The translations under genes were made by a program, and so were the position numbers. DNA of 64,000 nucleotides, taken from NCBI GenBank assembly GCA_041601615.1, contig JBFIHX010000003.1, forward strand, positions 32,001-96,000, given 5' to 3'. The notes beneath the pieces were generated by a model. That model saw only the letters and a list, made by a program, of their open reading frames with translations, was not told the origin of the DNA and made no database searches. Origin of the DNA: Thermoplasmatota archaeon. Its GTDB lineage: Archaea; Thermoplasmatota; E2; JACPAO01; JAHFTW01. Of this stretch, positions 14,961 through 61,398 are shown in pieces (position 1 is the stretch's first letter; every line of letters starts with the position of its first letter).

Positions 14961-15014
14961 CTATGCTTCGAGGATTCGTCGGCACTCGGCGAGGATTTTG
15001 CTTTCGTCGGGCAG
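14961..15014 (-). repeat. Synonymously recoded second copy of the pdhB 3' end (LPDESKILAECRRILEA*)
   Basis: Matches 15086-15139 (MPDESKILAECRRILAA*) at 15 of 17 residues; 12 of those 15 codons differ synonymously. Confidence 0.9.
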
Positions 15015-15044
15015 TCGCCAGCCCTTCGCTCGGGCAAGCTCCCA

Positions 15045-15136
15045 CCGGACGAGTCCGATTTTGGCCTAGCCTTGGAATCTCTTCGCTACGCTGCGAGAAT
15101 CCTGCGGCATTCGGCCAAAATCTTGGACTCATCCGG
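15045..15136. repeat. Inverted repeat enclosing the pdhB stop codon
   Basis: CCGGACGAGTCCGATTTTGGCC (15045-15066) is the near reverse complement of GGCCAAAATCTTGGACTCATCCGG (15113-15136). Confidence 0.75.
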
Positions 15137-16162
15137 CATATACCAGTGCTCACGCGCCAGCAAGGGCGTGTGGACATCGGGTGCGGCGACGAAGCCGACG
15201 GGGGCTTCGAGGGCGTAGAAGGCGTCGGATTCGTTGATGCGGCGGGTGATTTCGCTGCCCCAGCCACCGGAGCGGGGGGCTTCCTGGACGATGACGACCT
15301 TGCCGGTTTTCTTGACGGAGGCGATGATGGTTTCGCTGTCCATCGGGCTGATGGTTTGCAAGTCGAGGTAGTCGACGCTGACGCCATCGGCTTCCAGTTG
15401 GGCGACGGCCTTGTCGCAGAACCAGCGCATGGCGCCCCAGGTCACGAGCGTGAGGTCGGTGCCTTCCTGGACCACTTCGGTCTTCCTGAGTTCGGCTACT
15501 TCTTCGTCGAGGGGGACGGCTTCACGGTACTTGCGGTACAGGAACTTGGGCTCCATGAAGATCACGGGCTCGTCGCTGCGGATGGCGGCCTTCAGGAGGG
15601 CGCGTGCGTTGCGCGGGGTGCTTGGCATGACCACGGTGAGGCCGGGCGTGTGGGCGTAGTACGCTTCGCGCGACTCGCTGTGGTGTTCTAGGGCGCGGAC
15701 ACCGGCTCCGTAGGGCATGTGGATGACCATGGGGAGTTTGTGGCGGCCGTTGGTGCGCTTGAGGTAGCGGGCCATGTGCGATTCGTAGTGGTGCATCGCG
15801 TTGTAGGCGAAGCCACTGAATTGCATCTCGCCGATGGGGCGGTAGCCGGCGATGGCGAGGCCGGTGGCAGCACCCGCGATGGCCATTTCGCTAATCGGGG
15901 TGTCGAAGACGCGGTCGCGGCCGTATTTGTCAAAGAGGCCGTCGGTGAGGCGGAAGATGCCGCCGTCGCGTCCGACGTCTTCGCCGAGGATCATCACTTT
16001 GGGGTCACGGGCCATTTCTTCGTCGAAGGCCATGTTCATGGCTTCGATGAGGTTCAGTTCGACGGCGCCGGCTTCGTCGCATTCCTTCTGCTTCTTTTCG
16101 TATTGGACCTGCCAGGTGGGCTTGGTGTAGAATGGGTCCTCTTCTGCGTGAACCAAAGCCAT
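15086..16162 (-). CDS. pdhB: 2-oxoacid (pyruvate) dehydrogenase E1 beta subunit
   Basis: GEDVGRDGGIFR, RVFDTPISE, EMQFSGF, GAGVRALEHHSES, FMEPK. Confidence 0.92.
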   Translation of the reverse strand: MALVHAEEDPFYTKPTWQVQYEKKQKECDEAGAVELNLIEAMNMAFDEEMARDPKVMILGEDVGRDGGIFRLTDGLFDKYGRDRVFDTPISEMAIAGAATGLAIAGYRPIGEMQFSGFAYNAMHHYESHMARYLKRTNGRHKLPMVIHMPYGAGVRALEHHSESREAYYAHTPGLTVVMPSTPRNARALLKAAIRSDEPVIFMEPKFLYRKYREAVPLDEEVAELRKTEVVQEGTDLTLVTWGAMRWFCDKAVAQLEADGVSVDYLDLQTISPMDSETIIASVKKTGKVVIVQEAPRSGGWGSEITRRINESDAFYALEAPVGFVAAPDVHTPLLAREHWYMPDESKILAECRRILAA

Positions 16163-17268
16163 TAGTGAGCCCCCTCAGGTAGTCCGTGCTTTTCGAAATG
16201 AGCCAGAAGTTGCTCTTTTTGCCATGTCAAGTAGGGCGGCTCGTCGATGTAGGCGTTCTCGAACATGTAATCGGGAGTGCGGAGGGTTTTGGCCTTGGTC
16301 TCGAAGTCTTCGATGGCCTGGTCGATCTTGGCGTTGATGCGGGCGTCCATTTCTTCTTGCTTCTTGGCGTTCCACCAGCGTTTCTTGGTGAGGTACTTTT
16401 GGACGCGGTCGATGGGGTCTTTCTGGGCCCATTCTTCTTCCAGTGCCTTGGGTCGGTACTTGGAGGGGTCGTCCGCAGTGGTGTGGACGTTCATGCGGAA
16501 GGTCACGGCTTCGATGAGGGTGGGTCCTTCGCCGGCGCGGGCGCGGGCCACGGCGTCGCTTGTGGCTTTGATCATGGCCAGGAGGTCGTTGCCGTCCACT
16601 TGGATGCTGGGGATGCCGTAGGCGACTGCCTTTTGCGCGATGGTTTCGCTGACGGTTTGCCACTTGCGCGGGACGCTGATGGCCCATTGGTTGTTTTGGA
16701 TGACGAAGACGACGGGGGCCTTCAGGACGGCGGCCATGTTGATGGCTTCGTGGAAGTCGCCTTCGCTGGTGCTGCCGTCGCCGCCGTAGGTGATGGCGAT
16801 GTTCTTGGTGCCGTTTTTGACTTCGGCCCAGGCGGTGCCCAGTGCGTGGGTATACTGGGTGCCGATGGGGATGCAGATGGGGAGTACCTTGGCGTCGGGG
16901 GCGATGTTCATGCCCTCTTCGAATCCGGCGGCGTACAGCAGGTCGTCGACGGGGTCGGCGCCGCGGTGGAGGTAGCAGACGGATTCACGGAAGCTGGGGC
17001 AGAGCCAGTCGTCGTTGGTGGTGCAGTAGATGCTGCCTGCTTGGGCGGCTTCTTGGCCGTGGGCGGGGGCGAAGGTGCCAATGCGGCCTTGGCGTTGGAG
17101 CTTGAGGCGGCGGTGGTCCCATTGGCGGCTGAAGCTCATCAGTTCGTAGAGCTGTAGCAGGTCTTCTTTGGGCACCTTGGGGTCGAGTTTCGCGTCGACG
17201 GTGCCGTCGGCTGCGAGGATCGATAGGTGTTGAATCGGGGGTGGCGCGTACGCGGTCGTGATGGGCAT
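16162..17268 (-). CDS. pdhA: 2-oxoacid (pyruvate) dehydrogenase E1 alpha subunit
   Basis: QRQGRIG...GQEAAQ; TPP motif GDGSTSEGDFHE...NNQWAIS; HTTADDP. Confidence 0.92.
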   Translation of the reverse strand: MPITTAYAPPPIQHLSILAADGTVDAKLDPKVPKEDLLQLYELMSFSRQWDHRRLKLQRQGRIGTFAPAHGQEAAQAGSIYCTTNDDWLCPSFRESVCYLHRGADPVDDLLYAAGFEEGMNIAPDAKVLPICIPIGTQYTHALGTAWAEVKNGTKNIAITYGGDGSTSEGDFHEAINMAAVLKAPVVFVIQNNQWAISVPRKWQTVSETIAQKAVAYGIPSIQVDGNDLLAMIKATSDAVARARAGEGPTLIEAVTFRMNVHTTADDPSKYRPKALEEEWAQKDPIDRVQKYLTKKRWWNAKKQEEMDARINAKIDQAIEDFETKAKTLRTPDYMFENAYIDEPPYLTWQKEQLLAHFEKHGLPEGAH

Positions 17269-17440
17269 GAGGAGTGTCCTCCGCGAGGCGGTCGGCCGAG
17301 GGTGTTCGCGGGGGTCCGCGACCTGCCCCAGGCTGTCGGGCGGGCGCCGACACAGCGGGGTCTATTTCAAGCAAACTGGAAGGGGTTGCAGTGGACTCGA
17401 ACATGTTCGAGTTTGACTGTGCGGATGTGTGCAGTGGTGT

Positions 17441-17932
17441 TCAGGTGTCTGTGGCTGGGGGGGAGCGGTAGGCGGTGCAGAGGAGGGCTGCAAACAGGCC
17501 GAGTGCGCCCAGAAGCAGGAGCACGTTGCCGGTGGCGGGGTGGTCCCAGCGCAGGTAGGCGCCAAGTGCTGCGAGGATGCCAGCGGCAAGGGCGGGGCGG
17601 GCCCAGGGCCAGAGCACGAGTGCGGTGCCGAGGTGGACGAGGCTGGGGCCGGTGAGGGCGATTGCGTCGAGGGGGAGTCGGGGGACGACGTTGTGGCCGA
17701 TGAGCGCGGTGGCGGCGCCGGCGACCACGAATGGGAATGCGAGGTAGCCATAGCGGGAGGTGGCGGCCAGGATCATGCCGAGGCCGGAGAGGGTGCCTCC
17801 GAGGGCAAAGAAGATCCAGTAGAATCCTGGTTCGGCGGTGTCTGTGAGTGCGAGGGTGGCGCGGACGGCGACCACGAGCGGGGCCAGCGTCATCATCCAA
17901 AGGCCGGGGGCAAGAAGCCGGGTTCGGTCCAC
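17441..17932 (-). CDS. Integral membrane protein
   Basis: Five to six hydrophobic helices in the 3' part of ORF 17441..18640. Confidence 0.6.
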   Translation of the reverse strand: MDRTRLLAPGLWMMTLAPLVVAVRATLALTDTAEPGFYWIFFALGGTLSGLGMILAATSRYGYLAFPFVVAGAATALIGHNVVPRLPLDAIALTGPSLVHLGTALVLWPWARPALAAGILAALGAYLRWDHPATGNVLLLLGALGLFAALLCTAYRSPPATDT

Positions 17933-17958
17933 GGTTGGGCGCGAGTCGGACAGGGTCT

Positions 17959-18594
17959 TCAGCTTGCCGTGCCGGTGTCGCTGCGGGCAATACGGTCGAG
18001 GACAAGGCGGGCAAGCTCCTCGTTTTGGCGAAGGGTGGTTTGGTCGGCGCGTTGGCCTTGCCAGACTGTGTCGATCGTGCCGTTGGCGTCGATGAAGAGG
18101 GTGACGGGTTGGTATTCGACTTGCAAGAGTGGCCGAATGTGGTCGTCGGGGTCCCACCATTGGGTACCGGGAGCTTCGGCTGCTTCCTTGCGCATGGCGT
18201 CTTCGAATCGATTTGAGTCGATGCTGACGCTGATGAAGTCCACGCGGTCGCCGTATTCGGAAAAGAGTCGGTGCATGGAGGGTTCTTCGGCCTCGCAAAC
18301 GGCGCACCAGCTGGCCCAGATATGCAACAGCACTGGGCGGCCCTTGTGGTCGGCAAGTGTGACCTCGTTGCCGTCCAAATCTTGGCTTATGTAGGGTGGC
18401 GCGGCTTGCCCTTCGAGTGCATGGCCGGAGCGGCCCAGCGTCTCGGCTGGTGGCATGGGGTCCGAGATTGGATTGGGCTGTGTGCATCCTGAGAGCGCGA
18501 GAACCAAGGCCAAGGTCCAACCAAGGAGGGGCGCCACGATGGGAGCAGCCGAACGCGGGACGGGCACCCTCGAACTTTGCGCTGCGCATCCCAT
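17959..18594 (-). CDS. TlpA/ResA-like thiol-disulfide oxidoreductase lipoprotein
   Basis: Lipobox LSGC; WASWCAVC; YQPVTLFIDANG; start codon uncertain. Confidence 0.85.
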   Translation of the reverse strand: MGCAAQSSRVPVPRSAAPIVAPLLGWTLALVLALSGCTQPNPISDPMPPAETLGRSGHALEGQAAPPYISQDLDGNEVTLADHKGRPVLLHIWASWCAVCEAEEPSMHRLFSEYGDRVDFISVSIDSNRFEDAMRKEAAEAPGTQWWDPDDHIRPLLQVEYQPVTLFIDANGTIDTVWQGQRADQTTLRQNEELARLVLDRIARSDTGTAS

Positions 18595-18801
18595 AATCGT
18601 TGCCCCAACTACGAGGGGTGGGTGCCGACGCCTCGACCAAGTTTGGTCGTTGATGCTGAGGGAAGGCTATATGTTTCGAATCGACGCCGTATTTTTTGTT
18701 TGAGCTGCGGGGGGCGGGTAATGAAATGGCTAGAGGTGCATAATTCGATGATAAGGAAACGTTGCGCCGGTACTAAATTGCCCGCAGATGGTATCGGGCC
18801 G

Positions 18802-19701
18802 ATGAACGCAAAACACTTCATCCTCGCCATGACGCTGATGCTCGTGGGCCTCGGTTCGCCCCTCATCAATGCGTCTCCCCTGACGACTACCTCGGAGTAT
18901 CACGAATACATCCTGAACGACATGGACACGGGACACATTGATGTCATCATCATCCCGTCCGCCAGCCCCTGGGCGCTGCGCGACATCAGCACCATCGAAG
19001 ACGCCCTGCAAGGCTGGGAAGATGGCATCCAAAGCAGCCTCAGTCCTGCCTGGCTCTCCAGCGGCTTCAGCATGGACATTTACACGCTCGGCTACGACGA
19101 CATCCCATCCGATGCCCTCTCGGACCCCGAAATCGTTGTGGTGGCCGCTGAAGTCAACCCCTTCCTGTTGTTCGGCATCGGCTACGGCGTCCCCATCGGC
19201 TTCTGCAGCGCCTTCAACCCTCTGGACCCGAGCATCTGGCAGCAGCACACCGGCAGTGACTGGGCCTACGCCAGCGCCGCCTGCAAGAGCGGTGGCAACC
19301 AGTGCATTGCGCTCAACACCAACTTCCTCCACATGGACGGTCCCTTTGTCACCATCAACGGCGGCAAGGGCGAGCGCCGCATGTACGACCTCGTCGCCCA
19401 CGAAATCGGCCACTGCCTCGGCATTGGTCACGTCGGAGACGCACTGGACTTCAGCACCACGATCTTCCCGAACAAGGACATCATGAGCTACCAGTACAAC
19501 AGCAACCAAGTGTTCTGCGTCAGCAGCCTCAACATCAAGAGCCTGCAAGGAGTCTACGCGGACGCCATCCCCGGCGCCCCCAGCTCCGCGACTCAGCCGC
19601 GCTACACCGGCGGCGAATTCGTCCACCTGCCTGTCGGGGACTACAGCCAAGTATCGTGCAGCAACCCGGACAACCTCAACGATCTTCCGCCCCTCCTCTG
19701 A
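18802..19701 (+). CDS. Secreted metzincin-like zinc metalloprotease, paralogue 1
   Basis: Signal peptide; HEIGHCLGIGH plus Met-turn DIMSY. Confidence 0.8.
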   Translation: MNAKHFILAMTLMLVGLGSPLINASPLTTTSEYHEYILNDMDTGHIDVIIIPSASPWALRDISTIEDALQGWEDGIQSSLSPAWLSSGFSMDIYTLGYDDIPSDALSDPEIVVVAAEVNPFLLFGIGYGVPIGFCSAFNPLDPSIWQQHTGSDWAYASAACKSGGNQCIALNTNFLHMDGPFVTINGGKGERRMYDLVAHEIGHCLGIGHVGDALDFSTTIFPNKDIMSYQYNSNQVFCVSSLNIKSLQGVYADAIPGAPSSATQPRYTGGEFVHLPVGDYSQVSCSNPDNLNDLPPLL

Positions 19702-20392
19702 GTCATGGAACACCACTCCCTCACCCTCCTTCTCCCCTTTGCCATCCGCAATTTTTAATGAATTGAGAGATAAAATAACCGGGTAATGATGGGGTTAGTT
19801 ACGATTGACAACAGGGTAAAGCCTCCACCCATCGGCCCTATATCGTCAGTGCATTCTCGACCTTTGATGCAGCCACGAGCCAACATGCTCGCTTCAACCT
19901 TCCACTTGCCCGCAGCCACGACGCTCGCCCATCGGGCCGTGCAACGCGGCTCCAACACTGTCTACGCGTCCAGCGGCAACGCCGACCCCGCGTACAGTCC
20001 CAAGTTCTAACACACTGTCCCTGCCCAGAAACGACGAAAAAACCATCCTGTGGAACGCATCGAACCACCCACTGTTTCCCCCCACGGGCGATGCCTTCCA
20101 GCCTCCACCCCCTTTCCCACCACGGCCGCACCCCTCCCGCGCCGAGGCGATTTGCCTCAGGTTTCCCCCACCGAACCTGGAACGTGCGCCACCGCCACGC
20201 TATGCTCCCAGCGCCGCCTCTCCCATCGGTCCCGTCCCTGATTCTTCATCGAGGCAATCCCGTCCTCCCCCATTCTCCCTCCGGCTCCACCCTCCTCTAA
20301 CCAGTCCCCATTTGGCCGATGGGACGCACCCCATACCTGATATAGAAAGAAACGTCGGACCACACGCCGGGGCCCGCCTCGGAAGGTCCCCG

Positions 20393-21955: not shown

Positions 21956-22022
21956 GCTCGCGCTCGGTAGGTTCAACGCCCCTACCAGAACGCATTAACC
22001 TTCGCAGTGCGCCGTTGGGTTC

Positions 22023-22955
22023 ATGCGCGCAGTGATCTCCACCCTGCTCATGCTCATCGTGGTCGCCGCTTCCGGCTGCCTCGACGAAGAAACAGGCACC
22101 GACAGCCAAGATGGCACCACGGACCCAACGCAGGACATGGCCGATCCCGGCAGCGAACGCCGCGCCGCGTTTCTAGCCGACCATCCGACGTTCTGTGATG
22201 AAGAAGCCACCTGCGACTTCTGGGACGACGAATACCACCAATACGTCGTCTACAACCTCGACACCACCGTCATCGACGTAGTCATCGTGCCCCCCGCCGG
22301 CGGCAGCACACCCGACAACATCGCCGCAAGCCGCCTCGCCGTGCAAGCCTGGAGCGACGGCATCGAAGCCCAAGGAGCCGCCTGGTTTGCCGACAACTTC
22401 ACCATGAACGTCTACGCAGTCGGCATCGACATTCCCAGCCTCGACGCCATCGAGGACCCCGAAATCGTCGTCCTTTCTACGAGTGCGCAAAAACTCGTCG
22501 GCATCGGACTGGAGCCCAAGCAATTCGGCTGCCAAATCCTGAACCAAGGCGTCGTTGCAGACCTCGGCGGCCACGAGCACAACGGCAACCAAATCTTCGC
22601 CCAAGACTGCACCGGCATCGGCTTTACTTGCTTTGCAATCAACGTCGGAGACCTAAATGGCATTGCACTGCAAGATCTCATCGCACATGAAGTGGGCCAC
22701 TGCCTCGGCGGCGGACACGTCGGGGACGCACTCGACTTCCGAGCCCGCTACGCACCCATCGAGGACATCATGAGCTACCAGGACGACCCCACGCACGTCC
22801 ACTGTGTCAGCAATTTCGACGTGCGCGTGCTTGAAGGCGTCTATGCGCACCTGCTTGACCGCCCCGAGGAAGAATGGCTGCCCCGCGGCTCCTTCCTGCC
22901 CATGGACCCGCTGGAATACGATGCGGGCGAATGCGACAACCCGCCTGGGGTCTAG
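22023..22955 (+). CDS. Metzincin-like lipoprotein, paralogue 2
   Basis: Lipobox ASGC; HEVGHCLGGGH; DIMSY. Confidence 0.8.
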   Translation: MRAVISTLLMLIVVAASGCLDEETGTDSQDGTTDPTQDMADPGSERRAAFLADHPTFCDEEATCDFWDDEYHQYVVYNLDTTVIDVVIVPPAGGSTPDNIAASRLAVQAWSDGIEAQGAAWFADNFTMNVYAVGIDIPSLDAIEDPEIVVLSTSAQKLVGIGLEPKQFGCQILNQGVVADLGGHEHNGNQIFAQDCTGIGFTCFAINVGDLNGIALQDLIAHEVGHCLGGGHVGDALDFRARYAPIEDIMSYQDDPTHVHCVSNFDVRVLEGVYAHLLDRPEEEWLPRGSFLPMDPLEYDAGECDNPPGV

Positions 22956-23049
22956 TCGGCCAAACAGCGCGCCTCTTGCCCCCGCGGCCGGGGCAACACT
23001 CCAACACCTCTACCAGAATCCTTTACCTCTTAGCAACGGCGTTGGGATT

Positions 23050-23958
23050 GTGCGAAACTCGCTGACCATGCTCCTCCTACTCCTGGCGCCCTTCCTCTCC
23101 GGTTGTCTTGGAGGAGCCAGCACTCTCGAAGCACTGGACGCGCCACGGGACGCCGAACGAGAGCGCAGCGAATTTCTTGCCAATCATCCCACATTTTGCT
23201 TCCTGCAATCCACCTGCAACTACTGGGACGACATGTACCACGAACGCGTCGTTTACGATCTAGACACCACCGTCCTAGACATTGTCATTGTACCTCCCGT
23301 CAACGCCCCCAATGACCAAACCGGCGCCGCCAGCCGCCTCGCGGTCCAAGCCTGGATGGATGGCATCCGAGCCCTCGGTGCCTCCTGGCTTGCAGACAAC
23401 CTCACCATGAACATCTACGTCGTCGGCGAAGACATCCCAAGCGTCGACGCAATCCCTGACCCCGAAATCATCGTGACTTCCGCAAGCCTCACCCTCACCA
23501 ACGGCATCGGGCTCGAACCCGTACAAGCCGGATGCTACGAGCTAGGCCAACTCGTCGACCAAGAGCTAGGCGGCCACGAGCACAACGGCAACCGCATCTT
23601 TGCCCAGCGCTGCGCGGAAACCAAATTCACCTGCTTTGCCATCAACGTCGGCGAACCCGAAAACATCGCCATGCAAGACCTCATCGCGCACGAAGTCGGC
23701 CACTGCCTCGGCATCGGACACGTCGGCGACGCCCGCGACTTCAAAGCCCGCTACGCCCCGATTGCGGACATCATGAGCTACCAAAACAACCCGGAGCATG
23801 TGCACTGTGTCAGCAACCTCAACGTGCGCACACTCGAAGGCGTCTACGCGCATTTGCTTGGCCGACCCGAATCCGAATGGATGCCTGCACACACCTACTT
23901 GGACATGGACCCGCTCGAATACGATGCGGGCCAATGCGACAACGCGCCTGGCGCCTAG
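23050..23958 (+). CDS. Metzincin-like lipoprotein, paralogue 3
   Basis: Lipobox LSGC; HEVGHCLGIGH; DIMSY; collinear with paralogue 2. Confidence 0.8.
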   Translation: MRNSLTMLLLLLAPFLSGCLGGASTLEALDAPRDAERERSEFLANHPTFCFLQSTCNYWDDMYHERVVYDLDTTVLDIVIVPPVNAPNDQTGAASRLAVQAWMDGIRALGASWLADNLTMNIYVVGEDIPSVDAIPDPEIIVTSASLTLTNGIGLEPVQAGCYELGQLVDQELGGHEHNGNRIFAQRCAETKFTCFAINVGEPENIAMQDLIAHEVGHCLGIGHVGDARDFKARYAPIADIMSYQNNPEHVHCVSNLNVRTLEGVYAHLLGRPESEWMPAHTYLDMDPLEYDAGQCDNAPGA

Positions 23959-23987
23959 CGCAACCGTACGATCGCACGGGCACCCGC

Positions 23988-39531: not shown

Positions 39532-39576
39532 TTAGTACGGCCTCTTCGGTTTGCCAGCACCCGCGTCAAAATTCCA
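39532..39576 (-). repeat. Second copy of the thyX 3' end (WNFDAGAGKPKRPY*)
   Basis: 25 bp identical (39534-39558 vs 39668-39692) with similarity extending to WKGFDAAAGKPKRPY*; offset 134 bp. Confidence 0.85.
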
Positions 39577-39665
39577 TCCACACCCGGGGGCGCTGCCCCC
39601 AGGGAATCCCCCGGGCGCGGCGCTCGCTGTGCTCGGCCCCGCTGTTCGACCGATGCGGTGCATCA

Positions 39666-41387
39666 TCAGTACGGCCTCTTCGGTTTGCCAGCGGCGGCAT
39701 CGAACCCTTTCCAAACTTTGACCCCGCACCATCGTGGTCCCTCGGGGCAGCAAGCGGCCACGTTGTCTTGCATCTCGGGGGGCTGGGCGGCGGCTACGAA
39801 GCTACACGGAGGCCCAAGCCAGCGCGTCAACTCAGGGTGGACCGCTTGGACTTGGCGCAGTTCGTCGAGTGCGGCGTCGAAGATCTCCTTCTGGGCGTTG
39901 AAGCAGAGGCGCAGGCGCCATTTGTGGATCCAGCTGAGCAAGTCGCCGCTTTGGGTGTAGTAGATGTTGGTGGCGTTGGGCAGCAGATACGCGGCGTCTT
40001 CGCGGGGGATGCCGAGTGCAATCAGTTTGTGCATGGCTTCCCAAAGGGTCGCAACCGTGTCGTCGTAGGTGGCCAGGGCGTCTTCGTCGCCCGTGATGAC
40101 GCTAGGGACGTACACGTCGGGCGCCTCACTGATGCAGCGGTGCAGCAGCGGGCGGGTGCCAGGCGTCATGCGGTGGCGTTGGTCTTGGGCGTAGGCTGTC
40201 AGACTCTGGCGTTTGTGGAATGTGTAGTGGACGTGGCGCAGGCAGCGCAGCACGGGGCTGTGGTCCCAGGTGTTGAGGGTGTCGTTCCAGACGCGGTTGG
40301 CGGCGGGGTCGAGCACGGCCGGCAGAATCTCGTTGTCGGGGAGGCCGGAGCCCGTGACTTCGCGAATGGCGTCGGAGACTAGGTTTGCCGCGTGGGGTGT
40401 AGCGTGCAGGAGCTTGCTGGTGCGGCCTTCGAGGTCCATGGTGGGGCGCACCGGTTCGTTGGTGCTGAGGCTCCATTCCACGAGGTCGTCACGCGCGTGG
40501 GGCGCTTCGTCGAGGGCGTCCATGAACTTGGGGTCCACGGCGTGTACTGCTTCGACCATGGCGTCCACCACGGCGCGGGCCTCGGCGCTTGCGTTTTGGG
40601 CGTTGGCCATGCGCACGTAGCGCATCAAGACGATGCCGCTGATCGTGTGGTAGAGCTTCGTGGTGGCCGCCACCGGCACGACGTACCGCGCCATTTCCTG
40701 CGCCTTCTTTTCGGCCTCCGTTGTGATTTGCTTGGCGCTTTGACCTTTGATGCGGCCGATGGCACCCATCACATTCTCGTTCGGAACCACCAGACGTTCT
40801 CGAAGGTCGTGGTAGCCATCCCAAGCAGCGCCGACGGCGTGCTCGTACACGGCGCGGGCAGTGGGGTCTGCGGCGACGGTGGCGGGGACGTGCACCTCCG
40901 CGTGCTTCATCTCGACGTAGCGCTGGCTTTGCTGCTCGGAGTTGTAGAAGGTGTGCTGGTGCAGGAACGACTCCACGACGTTGCGGCTGACTCCTTCGAG
41001 CGCGAACACAAACGTCGGGTGCTGAAACGGCGTGTGGTGGCCGGCTTCGTAGATGCTGCGGGCGATGCGTTCGTCGTTGGGAGCTCGCTGGCGAGCAAGG
41101 TCCGCGAATACGGCGAGGGCGTTGCGGGTCTCGTCGTCGGGTGCCGAGGTAGAGACCGCGTCGACGAGTTCGATGCGGCGCTCATGGGGGGTGCCGGGGT
41201 CGCCTATCTCGTCCAATTGCGCCTGCCACCGAGGGAGCGCTTCCAGGAGCGTCGTGCGGGTACGCTCTCCTTTGGGCGTCAACTGGTGCACGAACACAAA
41301 GTCGGCGGCATAGCAAGTCCGAGCACTTGCCACGGCCAAACCGTATGGATCGTGGGTGTAGGCCACCAGGGAAACGGAAGGCTCCAT
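39666..41387 (-). CDS. thyX: FAD-dependent thymidylate synthase, two-domain ThyX/Thy1 type
   Basis: ARTCY, GHHTPFQH, EQQSQRY, ARYVVP; second unit QDQRHR, YLLPNA, RLCFNAQKEI. Confidence 0.8.
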   Translation of the reverse strand: MEPSVSLVAYTHDPYGLAVASARTCYAADFVFVHQLTPKGERTRTTLLEALPRWQAQLDEIGDPGTPHERRIELVDAVSTSAPDDETRNALAVFADLARQRAPNDERIARSIYEAGHHTPFQHPTFVFALEGVSRNVVESFLHQHTFYNSEQQSQRYVEMKHAEVHVPATVAADPTARAVYEHAVGAAWDGYHDLRERLVVPNENVMGAIGRIKGQSAKQITTEAEKKAQEMARYVVPVAATTKLYHTISGIVLMRYVRMANAQNASAEARAVVDAMVEAVHAVDPKFMDALDEAPHARDDLVEWSLSTNEPVRPTMDLEGRTSKLLHATPHAANLVSDAIREVTGSGLPDNEILPAVLDPAANRVWNDTLNTWDHSPVLRCLRHVHYTFHKRQSLTAYAQDQRHRMTPGTRPLLHRCISEAPDVYVPSVITGDEDALATYDDTVATLWEAMHKLIALGIPREDAAYLLPNATNIYYTQSGDLLSWIHKWRLRLCFNAQKEIFDAALDELRQVQAVHPELTRWLGPPCSFVAAAQPPEMQDNVAACCPEGPRWCGVKVWKGFDAAAGKPKRPY

Positions 41388-41526
41388 GGCCTGGACCGGA
41401 CGGCCCCCATCCTGTACCGCCTGCATCGAGTTGCCCGAGACCGGCGGGCGGTTTCAAGGCTTGGCTTGCGCACCCCGTGAGAACTTCAAGTGCAGACGTG
41501 TAGGCTCCGGCGCACCCATGGCGTGT

Positions 41527-53182: not shown

Positions 53183-53199
53183 CATATATTAAATATATG
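53183..53199. promoter_or_regulatory. Perfect AT-rich palindrome CATATATT-A-AATATATG
   Basis: Directly visible in an AT-rich segment upstream of the 51527..52897 gene. Confidence 0.4.
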
Positions 53200-53245
53200 C
53201 AGGTTGCTAATTAAGCACCACCCAAAATATTGGCAAAATCATTGC

Positions 53246-53965: not shown

Positions 53966-54103
53966 AGAACAAGCAAGGCACGGGTCAAATAAGCCACGTT
54001 CCCGGCGCCCCGGTGGGCATCTAGCACCCTGCCCGCCGACATCGGCCGACGCGCATCCTAAGCAAAGAGGCAAAAAGGCCGCCCGCCTGCCAACATGTAG
54101 GGG

Positions 54104-54403: not shown

Positions 54404-54408
54404 CCCAG

Positions 54409-54771: not shown

Positions 54772-54876
54772 CTTTGCTTGTATGGTTGAAAAAATTCACA
54801 TCCCTAGCTAGTGCGGGGTAAAGAGTGAATTTGGCGAACCATCGAACACAAACCCGGCCTGACGCTCATCGGCCTC

Positions 54877-55092
54877 ATGAGCAAGACCGGGACCTCCGAA
54901 AGAGCGTTGGAACGCGCCAGCCGTTGCCTCATGGAGAAAAAGGACATCATGGCCTGGGGTGACCCGCTTCGGTACTACGCAGCCAGGCAACTGATTTCTT
55001 GGGATGCACGACTTGTGACGGCGTGCCCCAACAACATGCAAGAACAGGCAAATGACCCCGAGAACATCCATCAGGAGCCTAGACCAAACTAG
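54877..55092 (+). CDS. Small hypothetical protein
   Basis: 71-aa ATG ORF in an otherwise empty interval. Confidence 0.3.
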   Translation: MSKTGTSERALERASRCLMEKKDIMAWGDPLRYYAARQLISWDARLVTACPNNMQEQANDPENIHQEPRPN

Positions 55093-55234
55093 GGCATACC
55101 TGCAGCAATCATGAGCTAGAGCGCAAGGCAGGCAATCATTTTTGCAAGCCTAGCGACTTCAAGCCTCATTCTTCCCAGAAACTCCTCGGAACACCCGCCA
55201 CATCCCTTAACTAGAGGCACCTCTCGGCGCCCCT

Positions 55235-56416: not shown

Positions 56417-56686
56417 GTTCCGTAGCTCCCCGCTGCCGCGGCCGCATGTGCGAGCCTGTTCGATCCTAATCCCTTCTCTTTCCACTTTGCATCACGCGGG
56501 GCACTCTCATCGCCACGCGCCCCGACCCGAACACGAACGGCCGTAGGCTCGCCGCCGCTAGAGCCCCAATGCCCCGAGACACATCGCCTGTCGGGGTCAA
56601 AAAACAACAAAGCCAAAGGAAGCAAAGGGAAGAGGACGGGAAAGGAAGGAAGAGGAAGGAAGAAGGGGAAAGAATGGGCGTCGGCC

Positions 56687-59600
56687 CTAGCTCTTCGTAA
56701 CCGTCACCGAGACGGTCACGTCGCTGCCACCGAACGGCACCGAGAACGGCTGGGAAGCACTGTACTGCACTTCCTCGCCGCCCGTGGTCTTGGAGATATC
56801 CACGCTCAGCGAGTAGTCGCCAGGAGCGAGCGTTCGGTTGGCAAAGCCATTGGCGTCCGTAACGCCCGGAGTCGCCGTTCCCGCAGCGTCCGTGATCGTG
56901 AACTGCAAGCCCGCCTCGATGGGGGCCCCGTCCTGGTCGCGCAGCTCTAGCAACACCTTGCTCGGAGCGATGGCGAGCGCGAAGTTCTTGCTCGCCGTCT
57001 CACCAGCCGCAAGCGTCACGTCGCCGCCGCCTGCATTGTAGCCCGTTGCGGTGACCGTGGCCGATAGAACGCCGGGTTGCAAGTCGGCCAGAGCGTAGGA
57101 GCCGTCCGCGCCCGACATGACCAATTGGCCACCGACGGTCACAGAGGCACCGGCGATGCGGGTGTCGTTTGCACCGAGCACACCGTCGCCATCCACGTCC
57201 TGGAACACGGTGCCCGTCAGGGAGCCGCGCTGGACTGTGAGATCCACGCCGTTGACCGATTCGCCGAGGCGAGCCTGGACACGGTTGAATTGGATCGAGG
57301 TGTCGTTGCGGGACGCCAATTCGACGCCGCCGTTCAGGGCCACCAGAGTCAAGTCTCCATCTACCGAGAACGGTGCGAGGACTTGGTAGAAGCCGCTGGC
57401 GTCCGTGACGCCCACCGCGTGGCTGGCACCAAGGCCGTCCACGAAGGTGACCTGAGCGCCGGAAACCGGTTGGCCCGCGTCGTCCAGCACCGTACCGCTG
57501 ACGTTGACGCCACGGTAGTAGGCGAGGAGCTCCACTTGTTGGACACCAGAATCCTTGTCGGTCGACTCGTGCAGAACACGCCAGTGGGTCAAGCCGTCTG
57601 CGGGCGTGAACTGGTTCGCTTGGCTACCAAACGATCGTGCGTACATGCTGTCAAAGAAGGACTGCGTGGGCACGATTTGCGGAGGCCACTGGACCTGGAT
57701 GCCTTGGCCGGCTGCGGGGGATGTTCCGAAGGGGAACGCTTGGCCGCCGGTGACGAGCCACTTGCCGCCCGTTTGGTCTTCCCAGTACGGTTCAATGCGG
57801 AAGGAGTCGCCCTTGGCGTTCACGTCGTACAGGTGCTGGCGCAGTTGCAGGCCGCCACCGCCGGACGTCACTTGGTAGGTGAAGTTGTCCGGGTTCTTGT
57901 TGGCAAGGTAGGCAGGCGCGTAGAAGATGCCGGGGTTTTGGGCACTGACGGGGTACATGCGGCTGTCGACTCCGATGTACTCGATGCTGCGGCGGGCGTT
58001 GTTGACGCCCGTGTAGTCCGTGACTTCTTCGTACAGGTCAAAGATGTCGTTGTTGGTCAGATCCATCGTGGAACTGAGCAACTCGTACTCCTTGTCGTAG
58101 CCCCGGATGGGTCCGATCTCGATGAGCGCCGCGTCGACACCGCGCAGGGCAGCCTCGACGTGCGGGCTGTATTGGCCAATGGGCGCCGTACGACTGTAGT
58201 CGACGTTGATGGACAGCAGAGTCATCCAGGCGACCGCTTCTTGCTCCGACTCGCTGGCCAGGAAGCGGCCGGCGATGTTGTAGTTGTTCTGGAAGGGATC
58301 TGCCACCGTCGGGTGCATGCCGATGTCGGTGGCCCAGTGACCGTAGTCCCACCAGGCGATGAAGCCCGGCCGGTCTTCGATGTTCTTGATCTCCGTGTCC
58401 TGTTGGGCGAGCACGGTGAACGCTTCGAGCCAACCGTTGTCCTTGATGTCGAAGCTGAGGCCAAAGGCACCCAGGTGCTTCGTGTCGAGGCTCGTGCAGT
58501 CGTCCACTTCACAGGGGATGGCTGCGTCGACGCCGATCCAGGTGTTGGGCAGAATGAACAGCACAAACACCAGAAGGACACCGAGGGAGGTGCGCATGTT
58601 GAGGCTGCGCAGGCCAGCTGCGATGGGGTGTGTGCCGTGCTGTTGGCGGTAAGCGCGGCGGACCTTCTCGAAGCCGAGCTTGGCGACGATGATGGGCATG
58701 ACGGCGCCGGCTAGGAGCGCAAACACAGGGCTCGCGTTCATGATGAAGCGGCTGGCGGCGAAGGCCATGAACAGGGCAACGATGGCCCAGGAGACCATCA
58801 GCATGTGCTCTTGGTTGCCCTTCTTCCAGGCCTTCTTGATGGAGCCGCCGAGGCCCCAGAAGGCGAGCAGGAAGGTGAAGAAGCCGAAACTGGCGGCGAC
58901 ACGTCCGAGTTCACTGCGCTGGGCTTCCGCGATGGTGCCGAACAGCTTGGTCTGTTGGAAGTAGCCAAGGCCGGTGAAAACCGTCTGGCCCACGTTGGGC
59001 ATGGCGAAGACCATGATGGCCCAGCCGGCGATGAGGGTCAGCAGCAAGGCCGGGAAGACCAGAATACTGGGCAGGTCGCGGGTGGGCACCAGGATGGCGC
59101 TGACGACGACCATGCCAATCAGGACGTAGATGCCGGCCCAGATGGTGGTGTCCAGGAAGTTCGGGAACGCCAGGTAGTAGGGTAGCGGAATCAGCGTCAC
59201 GAGAATCATCGGCAGCAGGTAGAACGCCGTGAGGGCGGTGCTGTCGCGGTTCTTGACGTGGTCCCAGAGTAGTTGCATACCGAAGGCGACCGCCATGATG
59301 GCGAGCACGTAGGGGTAGCCCTTCCAGGTGAGGGCCGTGGCGCTGAGGGCGACGCCGGCGAGGGCGCTCCAAAGCATGGCGACCCGGTTGTGGGCGAAGC
59401 TGTTGCGAACACCCTCGGCGAGGGCGCCGCGGTGCCGCCAGTCCTTGACGTATTCGCGGTCGTCGAGCGCTTTCAGGCCCTTGACGAGGAATGCGACGGC
59501 GCAGAGAATCCAGAACATGGTGGCTGCGTCGTGGTCGGCAAAGCCCCAGACACCGCGTTGGATGTGGGGGGCGCTGACGGCCATGAAGAAGGCGGCCCAG

Positions 59601-60022
59601 AGACCGGCGCGGCGGTTCCAGAGTTCGGCTCCGATGATGAAGACGGGGATGACTGCGAGGGCACCCCAGACGGCGGTCATGAGATTGAGTGCCATTCCTG
59701 CGGGGTCCACGGAAATGGACCCTATGGTTCCGGCTACGACGGCGCTTGTCCAATCGAAAACAGGTGGATTGGGATTGTTGGCGCCGGCGGGGAAGTTGAG
59801 CGCGGGGTCGAACTGCAGGGATTCTCCTGTCTCAAGGATGTGGTTGACGGCCCGGTCGTGGTAGTACGGGTCATTACCCGAGTAAAGATAGCGTTCCGAG
59901 TCCTCATCAAAAGAAGCGTCGACGTTCCACCCGATGCGGAGGCCGATTGCCAGGAGGACGAAGACCGCGAGCCACGTGGCCAATGCCTTGTTGCTCATCC
60001 GAGTTTCGTCGCGAGATGCCAT
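56687..60022 (-). CDS. aglB: Oligosaccharyltransferase AglB/STT3 with C-terminal carboxypeptidase-regulatory-like repeats
   Basis: DPYYHDR, ADHD, TIAE, WWDYG motifs; many TM helices. Confidence 0.92.
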   Translation of the reverse strand: MASRDETRMSNKALATWLAVFVLLAIGLRIGWNVDASFDEDSERYLYSGNDPYYHDRAVNHILETGESLQFDPALNFPAGANNPNPPVFDWTSAVVAGTIGSISVDPAGMALNLMTAVWGALAVIPVFIIGAELWNRRAGLWAAFFMAVSAPHIQRGVWGFADHDAATMFWILCAVAFLVKGLKALDDREYVKDWRHRGALAEGVRNSFAHNRVAMLWSALAGVALSATALTWKGYPYVLAIMAVAFGMQLLWDHVKNRDSTALTAFYLLPMILVTLIPLPYYLAFPNFLDTTIWAGIYVLIGMVVVSAILVPTRDLPSILVFPALLLTLIAGWAIMVFAMPNVGQTVFTGLGYFQQTKLFGTIAEAQRSELGRVAASFGFFTFLLAFWGLGGSIKKAWKKGNQEHMLMVSWAIVALFMAFAASRFIMNASPVFALLAGAVMPIIVAKLGFEKVRRAYRQQHGTHPIAAGLRSLNMRTSLGVLLVFVLFILPNTWIGVDAAIPCEVDDCTSLDTKHLGAFGLSFDIKDNGWLEAFTVLAQQDTEIKNIEDRPGFIAWWDYGHWATDIGMHPTVADPFQNNYNIAGRFLASESEQEAVAWMTLLSINVDYSRTAPIGQYSPHVEAALRGVDAALIEIGPIRGYDKEYELLSSTMDLTNNDIFDLYEEVTDYTGVNNARRSIEYIGVDSRMYPVSAQNPGIFYAPAYLANKNPDNFTYQVTSGGGGLQLRQHLYDVNAKGDSFRIEPYWEDQTGGKWLVTGGQAFPFGTSPAAGQGIQVQWPPQIVPTQSFFDSMYARSFGSQANQFTPADGLTHWRVLHESTDKDSGVQQVELLAYYRGVNVSGTVLDDAGQPVSGAQVTFVDGLGASHAVGVTDASGFYQVLAPFSVDGDLTLVALNGGVELASRNDTSIQFNRVQARLGESVNGVDLTVQRGSLTGTVFQDVDGDGVLGANDTRIAGASVTVGGQLVMSGADGSYALADLQPGVLSATVTATGYNAGGGDVTLAAGETASKNFALAIAPSKVLLELRDQDGAPIEAGLQFTITDAAGTATPGVTDANGFANRTLAPGDYSLSVDISKTTGGEEVQYSASQPFSVPFGGSDVTVSVTVTKS

Positions 60023-60341
60023 GCAGTCACCGATGCCTAAAACAGGCAGCGTCGCGGCCAAAGGGGGGCTACTAATAATGTTTCCAGAGACGAGCCCGTA
60101 ATTTTGCAGAAATCCCTAGACGCCGTGTGTCCCACCCGGTGGGTTGATTCCGGGGGGCAGGGGAGTGTTTTTTCGTCGCCATCTTGCATTCTGCCTCATT
60201 CCCTATCCATTTTGGTGCATGAAGGAGCGAATTGCAGCCCTTCCGGTGGATTTGTCGCCCGTGATCGGCCCGTTTTGGTCCCGCGCTCCGATTTTCGGCA
60301 ATCAGGGTCGCTGGAGTGCCTAGCGCGGACTGCGATGCTGC

Positions 60342-60420
60342 CTATTCGGGTACGATTGCCTTTCCGAGGGCGCTTGCGATGAGGCCTACGGCAAATTTCC
60401 CAGTCTTGTTTTCGGTGTCC
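60342..60420 (-). repeat. Second copy of the arginase 3' end (DTENKTGKFAVGLIASALGKAIVPE*)
   Basis: 71 bp identical (60343-60413 vs 60488-60558); flanking codons differ synonymously (GAC ACC vs GAT ACA; TAG vs TAA); offset 145 bp. Confidence 0.92.
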
Positions 60421-60486
60421 GAGCGACCTTGAAAAAGGTCGATCATTTTGGGCGGCTCTCGGCTTCGCCTCGGCCACCCCGCAGCC

Positions 60487-61398
60487 TTATTCGGGTACGA
60501 TTGCCTTTCCGAGGGCGCTTGCGATGAGGCCTACGGCAAATTTCCCAGTCTTGTTTTCTGTATCGAGCAGTGGGTTGGCTTCGACGAATTCCATGCTGGT
60601 TACGAGGTCGGTCTCGGCGAGCATTTCGAGCGCGAGGTGGGATTCTCGGTAGGTGAGGCCGCCGTCGACTTTGGTGCCGGTGCCGGGGGCCCAGCGCGGG
60701 TCCACGGCGTCCAAATCGAAGCTCAAGTGGACTTGTTTTACGCCTCGGGACGCGATGGACATCGCTTCGTCCATGACTTTCTTCATGCCGTGTTCGTCGA
60801 TGTCGCGCATGGTGAAGTAGTGGGCGCCGCTGGCTTGCAACAGCTCAGCCTCCTTGGCGTCCACATCGCGCAGGCCCACGAGGACGGTGTTTTCGGCGCG
60901 CAATTTGGGGCCGGGGCGGTCGAAGTCGGCGAGTCGCGGGTGGCCGATGCCGAGGGCGGCGCTCACGGGCATGCCGTGGATGTTGCCGCTTGGGCTGGTC
61001 TCGTGGGTGTTGAAGTCGGCGTGGGCGTCAAACCAGATCATGCCGCGGTCGGTGGAGCCGCGAGCAAGGCCGGCTTGTGTGCCGATAGCGATGCTGTGGT
61101 CGCCGCCGAGTACGATGGGCATGACGCCGTCCTTCATCGCTTCCTCTACTTTGTCGGCAAGTTCCGTGCAAGCCGCCAAGATTTCGTCGGCATAGCGCAG
61201 CTTCGGGTCGCCCACGTCGCCGGTCTGTTCCAGTTCCGGGGTCCAGACATTGCCGGCGTCCTGGACAGTGTAGCCGAGGGCGCGGATGCGGTCGTGCAGG
61301 CGGGCGGCCCGGATGGCGCTGGGGCCCATGTCGACGCCGCGGCGGCTGGCGCCAAGGTCAAGCGGGACGCCGATGACGCGGACGGTCTCGATGCTCAT
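60487..61398 (-). CDS. rocF: Arginase
   Basis: RGVDMGP, GGDHS, DAHAD, SGNIHGMP, SFDLDAVDP, PGTGT, VEANP. Confidence 0.93.
   Translation of the reverse strand: MSIETVRVIGVPLDLGASRRGVDMGPSAIRAARLHDRIRALGYTVQDAGNVWTPELEQTGDVGDPKLRYADEILAACTELADKVEEAMKDGVMPIVLGGDHSIAIGTQAGLARGSTDRGMIWFDAHADFNTHETSPSGNIHGMPVSAALGIGHPRLADFDRPGPKLRAENTVLVGLRDVDAKEAELLQASGAHYFTMRDIDEHGMKKVMDEAMSIASRGVKQVHLSFDLDAVDPRWAPGTGTKVDGGLTYRESHLALEMLAETDLVTSMEFVEANPLLDTENKTGKFAVGLIASALGKAIVPE

What the first reader, a model, noticed from the sequence alone, without database searches (positions are those of the whole stretch)
14961..60558. Recurrent 3'-end echoes: three unrelated genes each followed 125-145 bp later by a second copy of their own C-terminal codons and stop
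Seen in sequence: pdhB (offset 125 bp), thyX (134 bp) and arginase (145 bp) share one architecture, namely gene end, then a 65-90 bp GC-rich hairpin-forming spacer, then a copy of the last 14-25 codons ending at a stop. The copies span a gradient from near-identical (arginase) to almost fully synonymously recoded (pdhB). On the mRNA strand the spacers contain a loosely similar core: GCCCGAGCGAAGGGC, GGCCGAGCACAGCGAGC and GGCCGAGGCGAAGCC. Established: integrative elements that target the 3' ends of protein genes carry a replacement 3' end. Inference: these may be scars or miniature non-autonomous members of a 3'-end-replacing element family with no enzyme in this window, or a mechanism that keeps alternative C-termini. 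Three cases in 64 kb with similar spacing suggest a genome-wide process rather than chance.
Basis: partly seen in the sequence, partly recalled or inferred. Interest (0 to 1): 0.85.

Follow-up and report, generated by a model that had tools for sequence, protein, structure and literature searches.

The report
Hairpin repeats that duplicate gene ends
In this uncultured marine archaeon about one gene in a hundred is followed by a small hairpin-forming repeat and then a second, untranslated copy of the gene's own last codons, apparently a footprint of how these repeats insert.

Summary
All three echoes are where stated. A stop-anchored scan of 3,474 coding-like ORF ends gave 29 echoes, against 0, 0 and 0 in three permutations. 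Three or four of the 29 are neighbouring paralogues.

The echo starts at the 3' foot of a stable hairpin in 15 of 21 loci. The arginase spacer belongs to F1, a roughly 55-nt double-hairpin repeat whose structure is supported by covariation. Of 31 F1 copies in five genomes, 27 are followed within 0-6 nt by an 18-85 nt copy of their own 5' flank.

It is not an assembly artefact. An independent unitig spans the junction, and other MAGs carry orthologous echoes.

Gene end and echo evolve in concert at two loci. At pdhB and AspRS the echo keeps the allele seen in a same-genus genome, while the working end is the outlier.

No integrase, reverse transcriptase, Y1 transposase, TnpB or endonuclease cargo accompanies the echoes, and they are not in frame.

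My reading is that hairpin elements insert with a long, variable flank duplication, followed by gene conversion and allele turnover. The enzyme is unknown.

The parts
15086..16162 (-). E1 beta (pdhB-type) gene; its last 60 nt (15145-15086) form copy A
   Evidence: ORF; Pfam Transket_pyr plus Transketolase_C; sequence
15021..15085 (-). pdhB spacer. The first 17 nt after the stop are repeated after the echo. A small hairpin (15035-15021) abuts the echo.
   Evidence: fold z = +0.38, so not more stable than shuffles. The spacer is conserved in same-genus genome G002.
14961..15020 (-). pdhB echo (copy A'), ending in its own TAG
   Evidence: It carries the G002-type allele: 2 unique differences against 9 in the working copy.
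39666..41426 (-). thyX gene (two Thy1 stretches); its last 39 nt (39704-39666) form copy A
   Evidence: repeat D3
39571..39665 (-). thyX spacer: GC-rich hairpins. Its 5' part recurs at C7:30512-30555, C8:11-56 and C14:63373-63546.
   Evidence: fold z = -0.74
39532..39570 (-). thyX echo, ending in TAA (the gene ends in TGA), 12 nt before the ATG of the next gene
60487..61425 (-). Arginase-family gene; its last 78 nt (60564-60487) form copy A
   Evidence: repeat D2
60424..60478 (-). F1 double-hairpin element
   Evidence: nhmmer hit; fold z = -2.52; covariation; a junction unitig in reads
60342..60419 (-). Arginase echo: starts 4 nt after the F1 3' end and ends in TAG (the gene ends in TAA)

Best explanation
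The echoes are direct repeats left beside small, non-coding, hairpin-forming repeat elements. F1 is the clearest family; others serve pdhB and thyX.

When such an element becomes fixed next to a gene boundary, 18-85 nt or more of the DNA on its 5' side reappears immediately after its exact 3' end. The layout is flank, short linker, element, flank copy. Insertions survive only where the duplicated stretch contains the gene's stop codon (or a start codon, or a tRNA end), so the gene stays whole. That is why echoes of C-terminal codons are what one sees.

Afterwards the two copies exchange sequence by gene conversion, so they can stay nearly identical for longer than the species has existed. If the working copy is replaced by a diverged allele through ordinary homologous recombination, exchange stops. 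The echo then remains as a fossil of the earlier allele, which gives the 'synonymously recoded' look.

Shown: the anatomy, the exact 3' junction, the structured repeat family, the lineage range, concerted evolution, and the fossil-allele pattern.

Inferred: that the repeat is made by the insertion act itself (widely staggered cuts or target-primed copying), and which enzyme does it.
For: 1. 27 of 31 F1 copies (12 of 15 in G000, 15 of 16 in loci from G002, G007, G012, G014, G018 and G021) have a repeat of their 5' flank starting 0-6 nt after the element's terminal GGTCG. For each of the 27, 0 of 100 random controls reached the score (anatomy).
2. The duplicated flank depends on what lies there: 3' ends of co-oriented protein genes, the 3' part of a co-oriented tRNA (L180), the first 13 codons of an opposite-strand gene (L178), or 5' ends of opposite-strand tRNAs. 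This fits a mechanism blind to coding content, followed by selection.
3. F1 is a structured repeat family. 87.6% of cells are paired, against 80.9% in shuffles (0 of 500 reach it) and 36-43% when the partner is slid. There are 30 compensatory cells (0 of 500).
4. F1 is lineage-restricted and amplified. Its 3' hairpin pattern occurs in 8 of 121 sampled genomes of the class: 15 hits in G000, 9 in G002 and 1-2 in six others. The reversed-pattern control gave 1 hit in all.
5. Across all echo loci, the 45 nt before the echo fold more stably than control windows (mean -17.8 against -11.0 kcal/mol, Mann-Whitney p about 9e-7). The hairpin's 3' foot lies within 3 nt of the echo start in 15 of 21 loci.
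6. Concerted evolution: sites where A equals A' within a genome but G000 and G002 differ number 13 against 0 of the orthologous pattern at C2:181994, and 6 against 0 at C2:306619. These include a TCG/AGC serine switch present in both copies.
7. Fossil alleles: at pdhB the working copy has 9 unique differences and its echo 2. At AspRS the echo is 0.85 identical to the G002 gene end, against 0.80 for the working copy.
8. Differences are mostly synonymous: 105 synonymous against 68 non-synonymous over 21 loci, with unaligned 5' codons included. The binomial p is 6e-7 against a 58% neutral expectation that I derived myself.
Against: - A classical target-site duplication should abut both element ends. 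Here 0-46 nt of unrelated linker lie between the upstream copy and the F1 5' end. At C2:306619 the repeat runs 12 nt into F1 itself.
- Repeat length is very variable. No prokaryotic transposon known to me (recalled) makes duplications this long.
- No candidate enzyme was found in the 93%-complete MAG: Y1_Tnp, RVT_1, the TnpB Zn-ribbon domain and OrfB_IS605 all gave 0 hits.
- In 6 of 11 high-identity cases that I read by eye, homology ends within 2 nt of the stop codon, and the stop codon itself differs in 10 of 21 loci. This fits two juxtaposed alleles at least as well as a duplication.
- 4 of 31 F1 copies have no significant repeat.
- The pdhB and thyX spacers in the window are not F1 and do not fold better than shuffles.
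- Echo-to-echo differences between genomes are also mostly synonymous (pdhB G000 against G002, read; the thyX trio, read). Simple fossilisation does not predict this.
Confidence: 0.45

Rival explanations
1. 3'-end replacement by incoming DNA. A fragment from another lineage carries the gene end, its stop, its own 3' flank and a hairpin. It recombines homologously inside the gene, and its hairpin end is joined illegitimately a few dozen nt upstream of the resident stop. The resident end is left behind as the echo. This is an enzyme-free or trans-mobilised archaeal counterpart of the mitochondrial C-terminal swaps.
For: - Homology often stops at the stop codon, and stop codons differ in 10 of 21 loci (sequences).
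- Recoded echoes have aa identity far above nt identity: AspRS 68% nt and 95% aa; C5:112936 71% and 90%.
- The echo is closer to the same-genus genome's allele and the working end is the outlier. The same pattern is reported for native against inserted C-termini in Glomus mtDNA (PMC3630166, passages read).
- In G000 and G002 the same gene (C9:15056 and L174) carries different spacers in front of an orthologous echo and downstream flank (one search compared).
Against: - Concerted evolution at two loci, with a structure older than the G000/G002 split, shows that A and A' need not come from different lineages.
- Tandem arrays in which the spacer is repeated too occur at 8 or more loci.
- Echoes of 5' ends of opposite-strand genes and tRNAs are hard to explain by gene-end replacement.
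- No endonuclease or other cargo lies between copies. Echoes 400-5000 nt away turned out to be neighbouring paralogues.
Confidence: 0.22
2. There is no mobile element. Stable hairpins after genes stall replication or block flap processing and provoke local tandem duplications (minisatellite-like). Selection removes those that break genes.
For: - The genome is full of short-range tandem repeats of period 60-400 nt: 68 loci, of which 47 are not internal protein repeats.
- These include whole-tRNA duplications and purely intergenic arrays.
- 15 of the 68 repeat loci lie within 300 nt of a contig end.
- Arrays reach 2.4-3.3 units.
Against: - The junction lies exactly at the F1 3' end in 27 of 31 copies, with no microhomology to the sequence before the upstream copy (microhomology judged by eye).
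- Most loci have 1.3-1.7 units, with no second spacer (13 of 21 show no spacer similarity after the echo).
- F1 is a dispersed family, conserved across genera and amplified in one genus. This needs some means of spread.
Confidence: 0.2
3. The echo is functional: an alternative C-terminus reached by read-through, frameshift or splicing, or a translated leader that keeps the downstream gene coupled.
For: - Every scanned echo ends in a stop codon, and the differences are mostly synonymous.
- In the genus g4 thyX loci the echo's TGA overlaps the next gene's ATG. In G000 the thyX echo ends 12 nt before the next ATG.
Against: - Offsets are in frame in only 6 of 21 loci (offsets listed).
- The scan itself required aligned stops, so stop conservation is partly ascertainment.
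- The pdhB echo lies between convergent genes, and the arginase echo lies over 200 nt from the next gene.
- Echoes of tRNA ends cannot be translated.
Confidence: 0.05
4. Assembly artefact: a chimeric join of two strains.
For: The genome is a metagenome-assembled genome of 30 contigs. Many contig ends carry perfect tandem repeats.
Against: - In run X1 a 134-nt unitig from an independent assembly covers echo start, F1, stop and gene end (60384-60517) with no differences. X1 may be the source sample, so this is not fully independent.
- Orthologous or analogous echoes occur in other MAGs: G002, G005, G003, G010, G012, G014, G018, G021, L025 and L059.
Confidence: 0.03

Closest known systems
C-terminal duplications beside mobile endonuclease ORFs in fungal mitochondrial genes (atp6, atp9, cox2, nad3, cob)
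   Same: The gene ends with one copy of its C-terminal codons and a second copy lies downstream. Inserted and native copies are 64-81% identical in DNA yet 91-100% in protein. The native copy is closer to relatives (PMC3630166, passages read; PMC6279837, passage read). The Allomyces atp6 case is cited inside PMC3630166; I did not read the original.
   Different: There, a LAGLIDADG or GIY-YIG endonuclease gene lies between the copies and drives the event. Here the spacer is 31-183 nt with no ORF, about 25-35 nuclear genes are affected, gene 5' ends and tRNAs are echoed too, and the copies evolve in concert at some loci.
REP/BIME/REPIN and MITE-type extragenic hairpin repeats of bacteria
   Same: Short, structured, multi-copy, non-coding elements sitting just after stop codons, with subfamilies and compensatory changes.
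   Different: REPs are tied to RAYT (Y1) transposases, and MITEs make short fixed duplications (recalled). Here no Y1 transposase was found, and the flanking repeats are 18-85 nt or more and variable.
Integrative elements that target the 3' ends of tRNA or protein genes and carry a replacement end
   Same: Direct repeats made of the gene's 3' end flank the inserted DNA and the gene stays intact. One F1 copy sits between two copies of a tRNA 3' part (L180).
   Different: Those carry an integrase, and one att core per element family (recalled). F1 copies have a different repeat at each locus and no ORF. The three PF00589 hits in the genome are on other contigs.
Target-primed insertions of non-LTR retroelements (LINE/SINE) and Cas1-type integration that duplicates a whole repeat
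   Same: A precise 3' junction, an imprecise 5' junction with filler, and variable or long target duplications (a recalled analogy).
   Different: No reverse transcriptase was found. I did not search for Cas1. There is no poly-A or other known priming signal.
Mycobacterial MIRU-type intergenic tandem repeats and other VNTRs
   Same: Head-to-tail units of 60-150 nt between genes, with copy number unresolved at contig ends.
   Different: The units here contain the neighbouring gene's own terminal codons, and most loci have fewer than two units. The comparison with MIRU is recalled.

Membership tests
Integrase-type integrative element at a gene 3' end | A tyrosine or serine integrase gene inside or next to the inserted DNA | tested here: not met
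   Spacers are 31-183 nt without an ORF. PF00589 hits lie only at C16, C13 and C8, none at an echo locus.
Integrase-type integrative element at a gene 3' end | One conserved att core shared by all copies of the element family | tested here: not met
   Each of the 27 repeat-flanked F1 copies has a different flanking repeat, taken from its own 5' flank.
Integrase-type integrative element at a gene 3' end | The element supplies a working replacement 3' end and the native end is displaced downstream | tested here: inconclusive
   The ORFs are intact. The echo is nearer to the same-genus genome's allele at pdhB and AspRS. At two other loci both copies carry the same species-specific variants.
Homing-endonuclease (mobile ORF) C-terminal duplication | An endonuclease ORF between the inserted and native C-terminal copies | tested here: not met
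   None within 415 nt. Hits at 400-5000 nt are neighbouring paralogues or a broken paralogue. Endonuclease Pfam families were not searched genome-wide.
Homing-endonuclease (mobile ORF) C-terminal duplication | Copies diverged in DNA but conserved in protein, with the native copy closer to relatives | tested here: met
   AspRS, C5:112936, C7:89934 and pdhB. This holds only for the recoded subset.
REP/MITE-like extragenic repeat | A multi-copy dispersed family with a conserved hairpin structure | tested here: met
   22 nhmmer hits at E below 0.01, at about 15 loci by my count; covariation; 8 of 121 genomes of the class carry the 3' hairpin pattern.
REP/MITE-like extragenic repeat | A cognate transposase (RAYT/Y1, or an IS whose ends match) in the genome | tested here: not met
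   PF01797, PF07282 and PF01385 gave 0 hits. The MAG is 93% complete, so absence is not proven.
REP/MITE-like extragenic repeat | A short target-site duplication of fixed length abutting both ends | tested here: not met
   Repeats are 18-85 nt. The downstream copy abuts the 3' end, but the upstream copy lies 0-46 nt from the 5' end.
Diversity-generating retroelement (variable and template repeats) | A reverse transcriptase nearby, and differences confined to adenines of the template | tested here: not met
   RVT_1 gave 0 hits. Differences are third-codon-position changes of all base types (sequences, read by eye).
Programmed alternative C-terminus (read-through or frameshift) | The echo is in frame, or in a fixed shifted frame, with the gene | tested here: not met
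   Offsets modulo 3 are 0 in 6 loci, 1 in 5 and 2 in 10, out of 21 (offsets listed).
Simple tandem repeat (VNTR) | Whole units repeated head to tail, spacer included | tested here: inconclusive
   The spacer recurs after the echo, fully or in part, in 8 of 21 loci and not in 13 of 21.

The most novel reading that the evidence does not exclude
A family of enzyme-less or trans-mobilised double-hairpin elements in marine Thermoplasmatota copies the end of whichever gene it sits behind and places the copy at its own 3' end. The resulting module (gene end, hairpin, gene end) can pop out and re-enter by homologous recombination in any relative that shares the conserved gene end. It would thus spread between species and repeatedly swap the 3' ends of housekeeping genes. 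That would be a cellular, endonuclease-free counterpart of mitochondrial C-terminal swaps. The echoes would then serve as a dated fossil record of allele turnover.
Probability: 0.15. Interest if true: 0.8.

Novelty: new variant of a known kind. Interest (0 to 1): 0.62.

Why it matters
If the flank copy is made by the insertion act, F1 and its relatives insert in a way not described for prokaryotic miniature elements: a precise 3' junction with a long, variable duplication of one flank. That points to an unidentified enzyme in an uncultured archaeal lineage.

Whatever the mechanism, the echoes are useful. They are internal fossils of earlier alleles of essential genes, so they allow allele replacement and gene conversion to be measured directly in MAGs.

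They also matter in practice. They break assemblies: 15 of the 68 short-range repeat loci lie within 300 nt of a contig end. They could also mislead gene callers and 3'-UTR annotation.

I found no paper describing this in archaea with the searches. Those searches cover open-access full texts only.

Tried and rejected
- Rfam: nothing at the spacers. The window at gathering threshold gave only a tRNA. The arginase spacer region gave only a chance miRNA hit at E = 1.5.
- Shared 13-nt spacer core in the window: not enriched. A relaxed genome-wide form gave 52 hits, of which only 11 lie within 120 nt after a same-strand stop, so it is not decisive.
- Remnant of a second spacer after the echo: none for arginase, thyX or pdhB (p = 0.77, 0.75 and 0.34).
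- Long-range echoes with cargo: the hits were tandem paralogues. The one candidate, C9:42038, is a broken paralogue of a wHTH protein.
- Population variants of the arginase locus in JGI metagenomes: the best relative is only 76% identical, so no empty or filled alleles could be compared.
- Read depth in run X1: the junction unitig has depth 17.3, the flanks 28.9 and 28.6, and the repeat-core unitig 37.4. This hints that only part of the population carries the insert. These are per-contig k-mer depths, so I do not count them as evidence. Runs X2-X4 leave the echo junction uncovered.
- Same-genus genome G002 has no F1 or echo after arginase, but its flank is not alignable, so the empty site could not be defined.
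- My home-made gene caller misses genes. The classes 'intergenic' and 'partial overlap' had to be re-read by hand. The count of at least 21 gene-3'-end repeat loci found at DNA level is therefore approximate.
- Bulge-helix-bulge intron, translational bypass and RNA-guided nuclease ideas were considered from the anatomy only and not tested.
- Rows dropped: one search used only the 21 stop-aligned loci with ORF >=120 aa and offset below 300, out of the 39. One search lists only copies matching the strict 3' hairpin pattern.

Full report
**What is there.** The window is part of contig C3 of a 2.79-Mb, 30-contig metagenome-assembled genome. It is 93% complete with 0.28% contamination. Related public records are titled 'Thermoplasmatota archaeon', and the runs that hold the window are marine metagenomes.

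On the minus strand, three genes end and are each followed by a second copy of their last codons and a stop (Pfam):
- an E1 beta (pdhB-type) gene, offset 125;
- a double-domain thyX, offset 134;
- an arginase-family gene, offset 145.

The arginase copies are 97% identical over 77 nt. The thyX copies are 86% identical over 37 nt. The pdhB copies differ at most synonymous sites but keep the peptide.

**More than chance, and genome-wide.**
- I compared the last 30 residues of every ORF with the three-frame translation of the 15-415 nt downstream. This gave 97 hits at score >=60, against 5 when tails and downstream regions were re-paired at random.
- A stricter scan required the tail's stop to align with a stop and used only 3,474 coding-like ORF ends. 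It gave 29 hits at score >=40 against 0, 0 and 0 in three permutations.
- Three or four of the 29 are neighbouring paralogues: the ribosomal P0/P1 tails, a ferredoxin pair with its antisense shadow, and perhaps C2:71963.
- Several real cases are missed because my gene filter rejects them, for example C2:181980, C10:44041, the S27ae-like gene at C7:44881 and the thermosome-like end at C3:274183.
- A fair estimate is 25-35 genes, about one in a hundred. They include GAPDH-, AspRS- and acyl-CoA-dehydrogenase-like genes, named only from their C-terminal motifs, which I recalled rather than tested.

**The spacers.** The 45 nt before the echo fold more stably than control windows 50-110 nt after other stops (mean -17.8 against -11.0 kcal/mol, p about 9e-7). 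The last paired base is within 3 nt of the echo start in 15 of 21 loci.

Taken one at a time, though, only the arginase spacer beats its dinucleotide shuffles (z = -2.52). The pdhB and thyX spacers do not.

The arginase spacer belongs to a family I call F1.
- It has 22 nhmmer hits at E below 0.01, at about 15 loci by my count.
- Twenty copies from four genera align to a two-hairpin consensus.
- The structure is backed by covariation. 87.6% of cells are paired, against 80.9% in shuffles and 36-43% when partners are slid. Nine pairs change on both sides (1 of 500 shuffles reaches this), and there are 30 compensatory cells (0 of 500). The copies are related, so these are not probabilities.
- Its 3' hairpin pattern occurs in 8 of 121 sampled genomes of the class: 15 hits in G000, 9 in same-genus G002 and 1-2 in six others. 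A reversed-pattern control gave one hit in all.

**The key regularity.** Of 31 F1 copies examined (15 in G000, 16 in loci fetched from G002, G007, G012, G014, G018 and G021), 27 are followed by a copy of 18-85 nt of their own 5' flank. The copy starts 0-6 nt after the terminal GGTCG. None of 100 random controls per copy reached the observed score.

Four copies have no significant repeat. Two of these are orthologues of each other and share a 9-12-nt match that is not significant.

The upstream copy ends 0-46 nt before the element, and an unrelated linker fills the gap. What gets duplicated depends on what lies there:
- usually the 3' end of a co-oriented protein gene;
- the 3' part of a co-oriented tRNA (L180);
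- the first 13 codons of an opposite-strand gene (L178);
- the 5' ends of opposite-strand tRNA-Ser and tRNA-Leu.

So the process is tied to the element's 3' end rather than to C-termini. Selection for intact genes explains why stop-containing repeats are what remain.

**Not an artefact.** In run X1 an independently built 134-nt unitig covers echo start, F1, stop and gene end with no differences. X1 may be the source sample.

Stronger support comes from other MAGs, which carry the same architecture:
- pdhB echoes in 5 of 10 Thermoplasmatota loci with enough downstream sequence, and in G002, but in 0 of 23 bacterial pdhB loci;
- thyX echoes with an F1-type element in G014, G018 and G021;
- an AspRS echo in G012;
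- orthologous F1-plus-echo modules in G002 at two further loci.

**How the copies evolve.** At those two orthologous loci the structure predates the G000/G002 split, yet each genome's two copies share that genome's synonymous variants. The counts are 13 concerted sites against 0 of the orthologous pattern, and 6 against 0. They include a TCG/AGC serine switch present in both copies. That is concerted evolution, most simply gene conversion. It means that identity between copies does not measure age.

At pdhB the picture differs. The G000 working end has 9 unique differences, its echo has 2, and both G002 copies have 0-1. At AspRS the echo is closer to the G002 gene end (0.85 against 0.80), while the working end is closest to another genus (0.85). 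Here the working copy seems to have been replaced by a diverged allele, and the echo kept the older one.

This accounts for the excess of synonymous differences: 105 against 68 over 21 loci, even with unaligned 5' codons counted. The p value is 6e-7 against a 58% non-synonymous expectation that I derived for one constrained and one free copy.

Two points remain awkward. Stop codons differ in 10 of 21 pairs, and homology often ends at the stop. Differences between echoes of different genomes are also mostly synonymous.

**What it is not.**
- The echoes are in frame in only 6 of 21 loci (offsets), so they are not alternative C-termini reached by read-through.
- The spacers hold no ORF.
- Echoes farther than 400 nt are neighbouring paralogues.
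- The genome shows no Y1 transposase, reverse transcriptase or TnpB domains. Its three tyrosine-recombinase hits lie elsewhere.
- Rfam has nothing at the spacers.

**Mechanism.** My best reading, held at under even odds, is that these hairpin elements insert with a long, variable duplication of one flank. The 3' junction is precise and the 5' junction loose, which recalls target-primed insertion. Gene conversion and allele turnover follow.

The rivals are:
- true 3'-end replacement by incoming DNA, the closest analogue being the endonuclease-driven C-terminal swaps of fungal mitochondria (PMC3630166 and PMC6279837, passages read);
- hairpin-provoked tandem duplication without any mobile element, which the many intergenic and tRNA repeats of this genome favour.

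The data at hand do not separate these cleanly. The enzyme, if there is one, is unknown.

**Verdict.** It is wrong on family membership and on alternative C-termini. I rate it a new variant of known kinds (extragenic hairpin repeats; C-terminal duplications), of moderate to high interest.

Noticed in passing
window 14445-14860 (+): A 185-nt internal repeat (72% identity, spacing 231) lies inside a cysteine-rich ORF (13855-14868) convergent with pdhB. It is a protein domain repeat, not an echo.
   Followed up: partly
L003 (G005:C28), downstream of arginase: An array of roughly 50-nt units. In each, a hairpin with a constant loop motif has a different, compensated stem, separated by a constant linker. 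It looks like a distinct repeat family.
   Followed up: no
G000:C5:116251-116540: Two 122-nt units upstream of tRNA-Leu(CAA) look like tRNA copies whose middle is replaced by hairpin-element sequence. Acceptor and T-arm-like ends are kept. ARAGORN does not call them.
   Followed up: partly
G000:C4:142560-142747 and C2:252292-252571: Whole tRNA genes are duplicated in tandem: tRNA-Gly(GCC) with period 105, and tRNA-Asp(GTC) with period 201 and hairpin-rich DNA between the copies.
   Followed up: partly
Contig ends of G000, e.g. C9:1-209, C10:4-230, C14:63346-63603, C18:31219-31454: Many contigs end in perfect or near-perfect tandem repeats of period 63-139 nt. 15 of the 68 repeat loci lie within 300 nt of a contig end, so these arrays probably break the assembly and their copy numbers are unresolved.
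   Followed up: partly
Whole window: There is strong local GC skew that flips with gene orientation (from -0.23 to +0.37 per 2 kb). Coding strands are C-rich.
   Followed up: no
G000:C3:223961-224379: A ribosomal P0-like gene and the next small gene share an acidic C-terminal tail (72% nt, 84% aa). This is a natural paralogous echo that scans for C-terminal repeats will flag. It is also a hint that the organism is an archaeon.
   Followed up: partly
L059 (public MAG record), 2975-3215: pdhB is followed by two successive echoes about 120 nt apart. Each is preceded by a hairpin that differs by a compensated pair, and each is recoded synonymously relative to the gene and to the other echo.
   Followed up: partly
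window 21999-23958 (+): Two adjacent genes share a C-terminal 30-residue tail (score 130, offset 1003). They are tandem paralogues.
   Followed up: no
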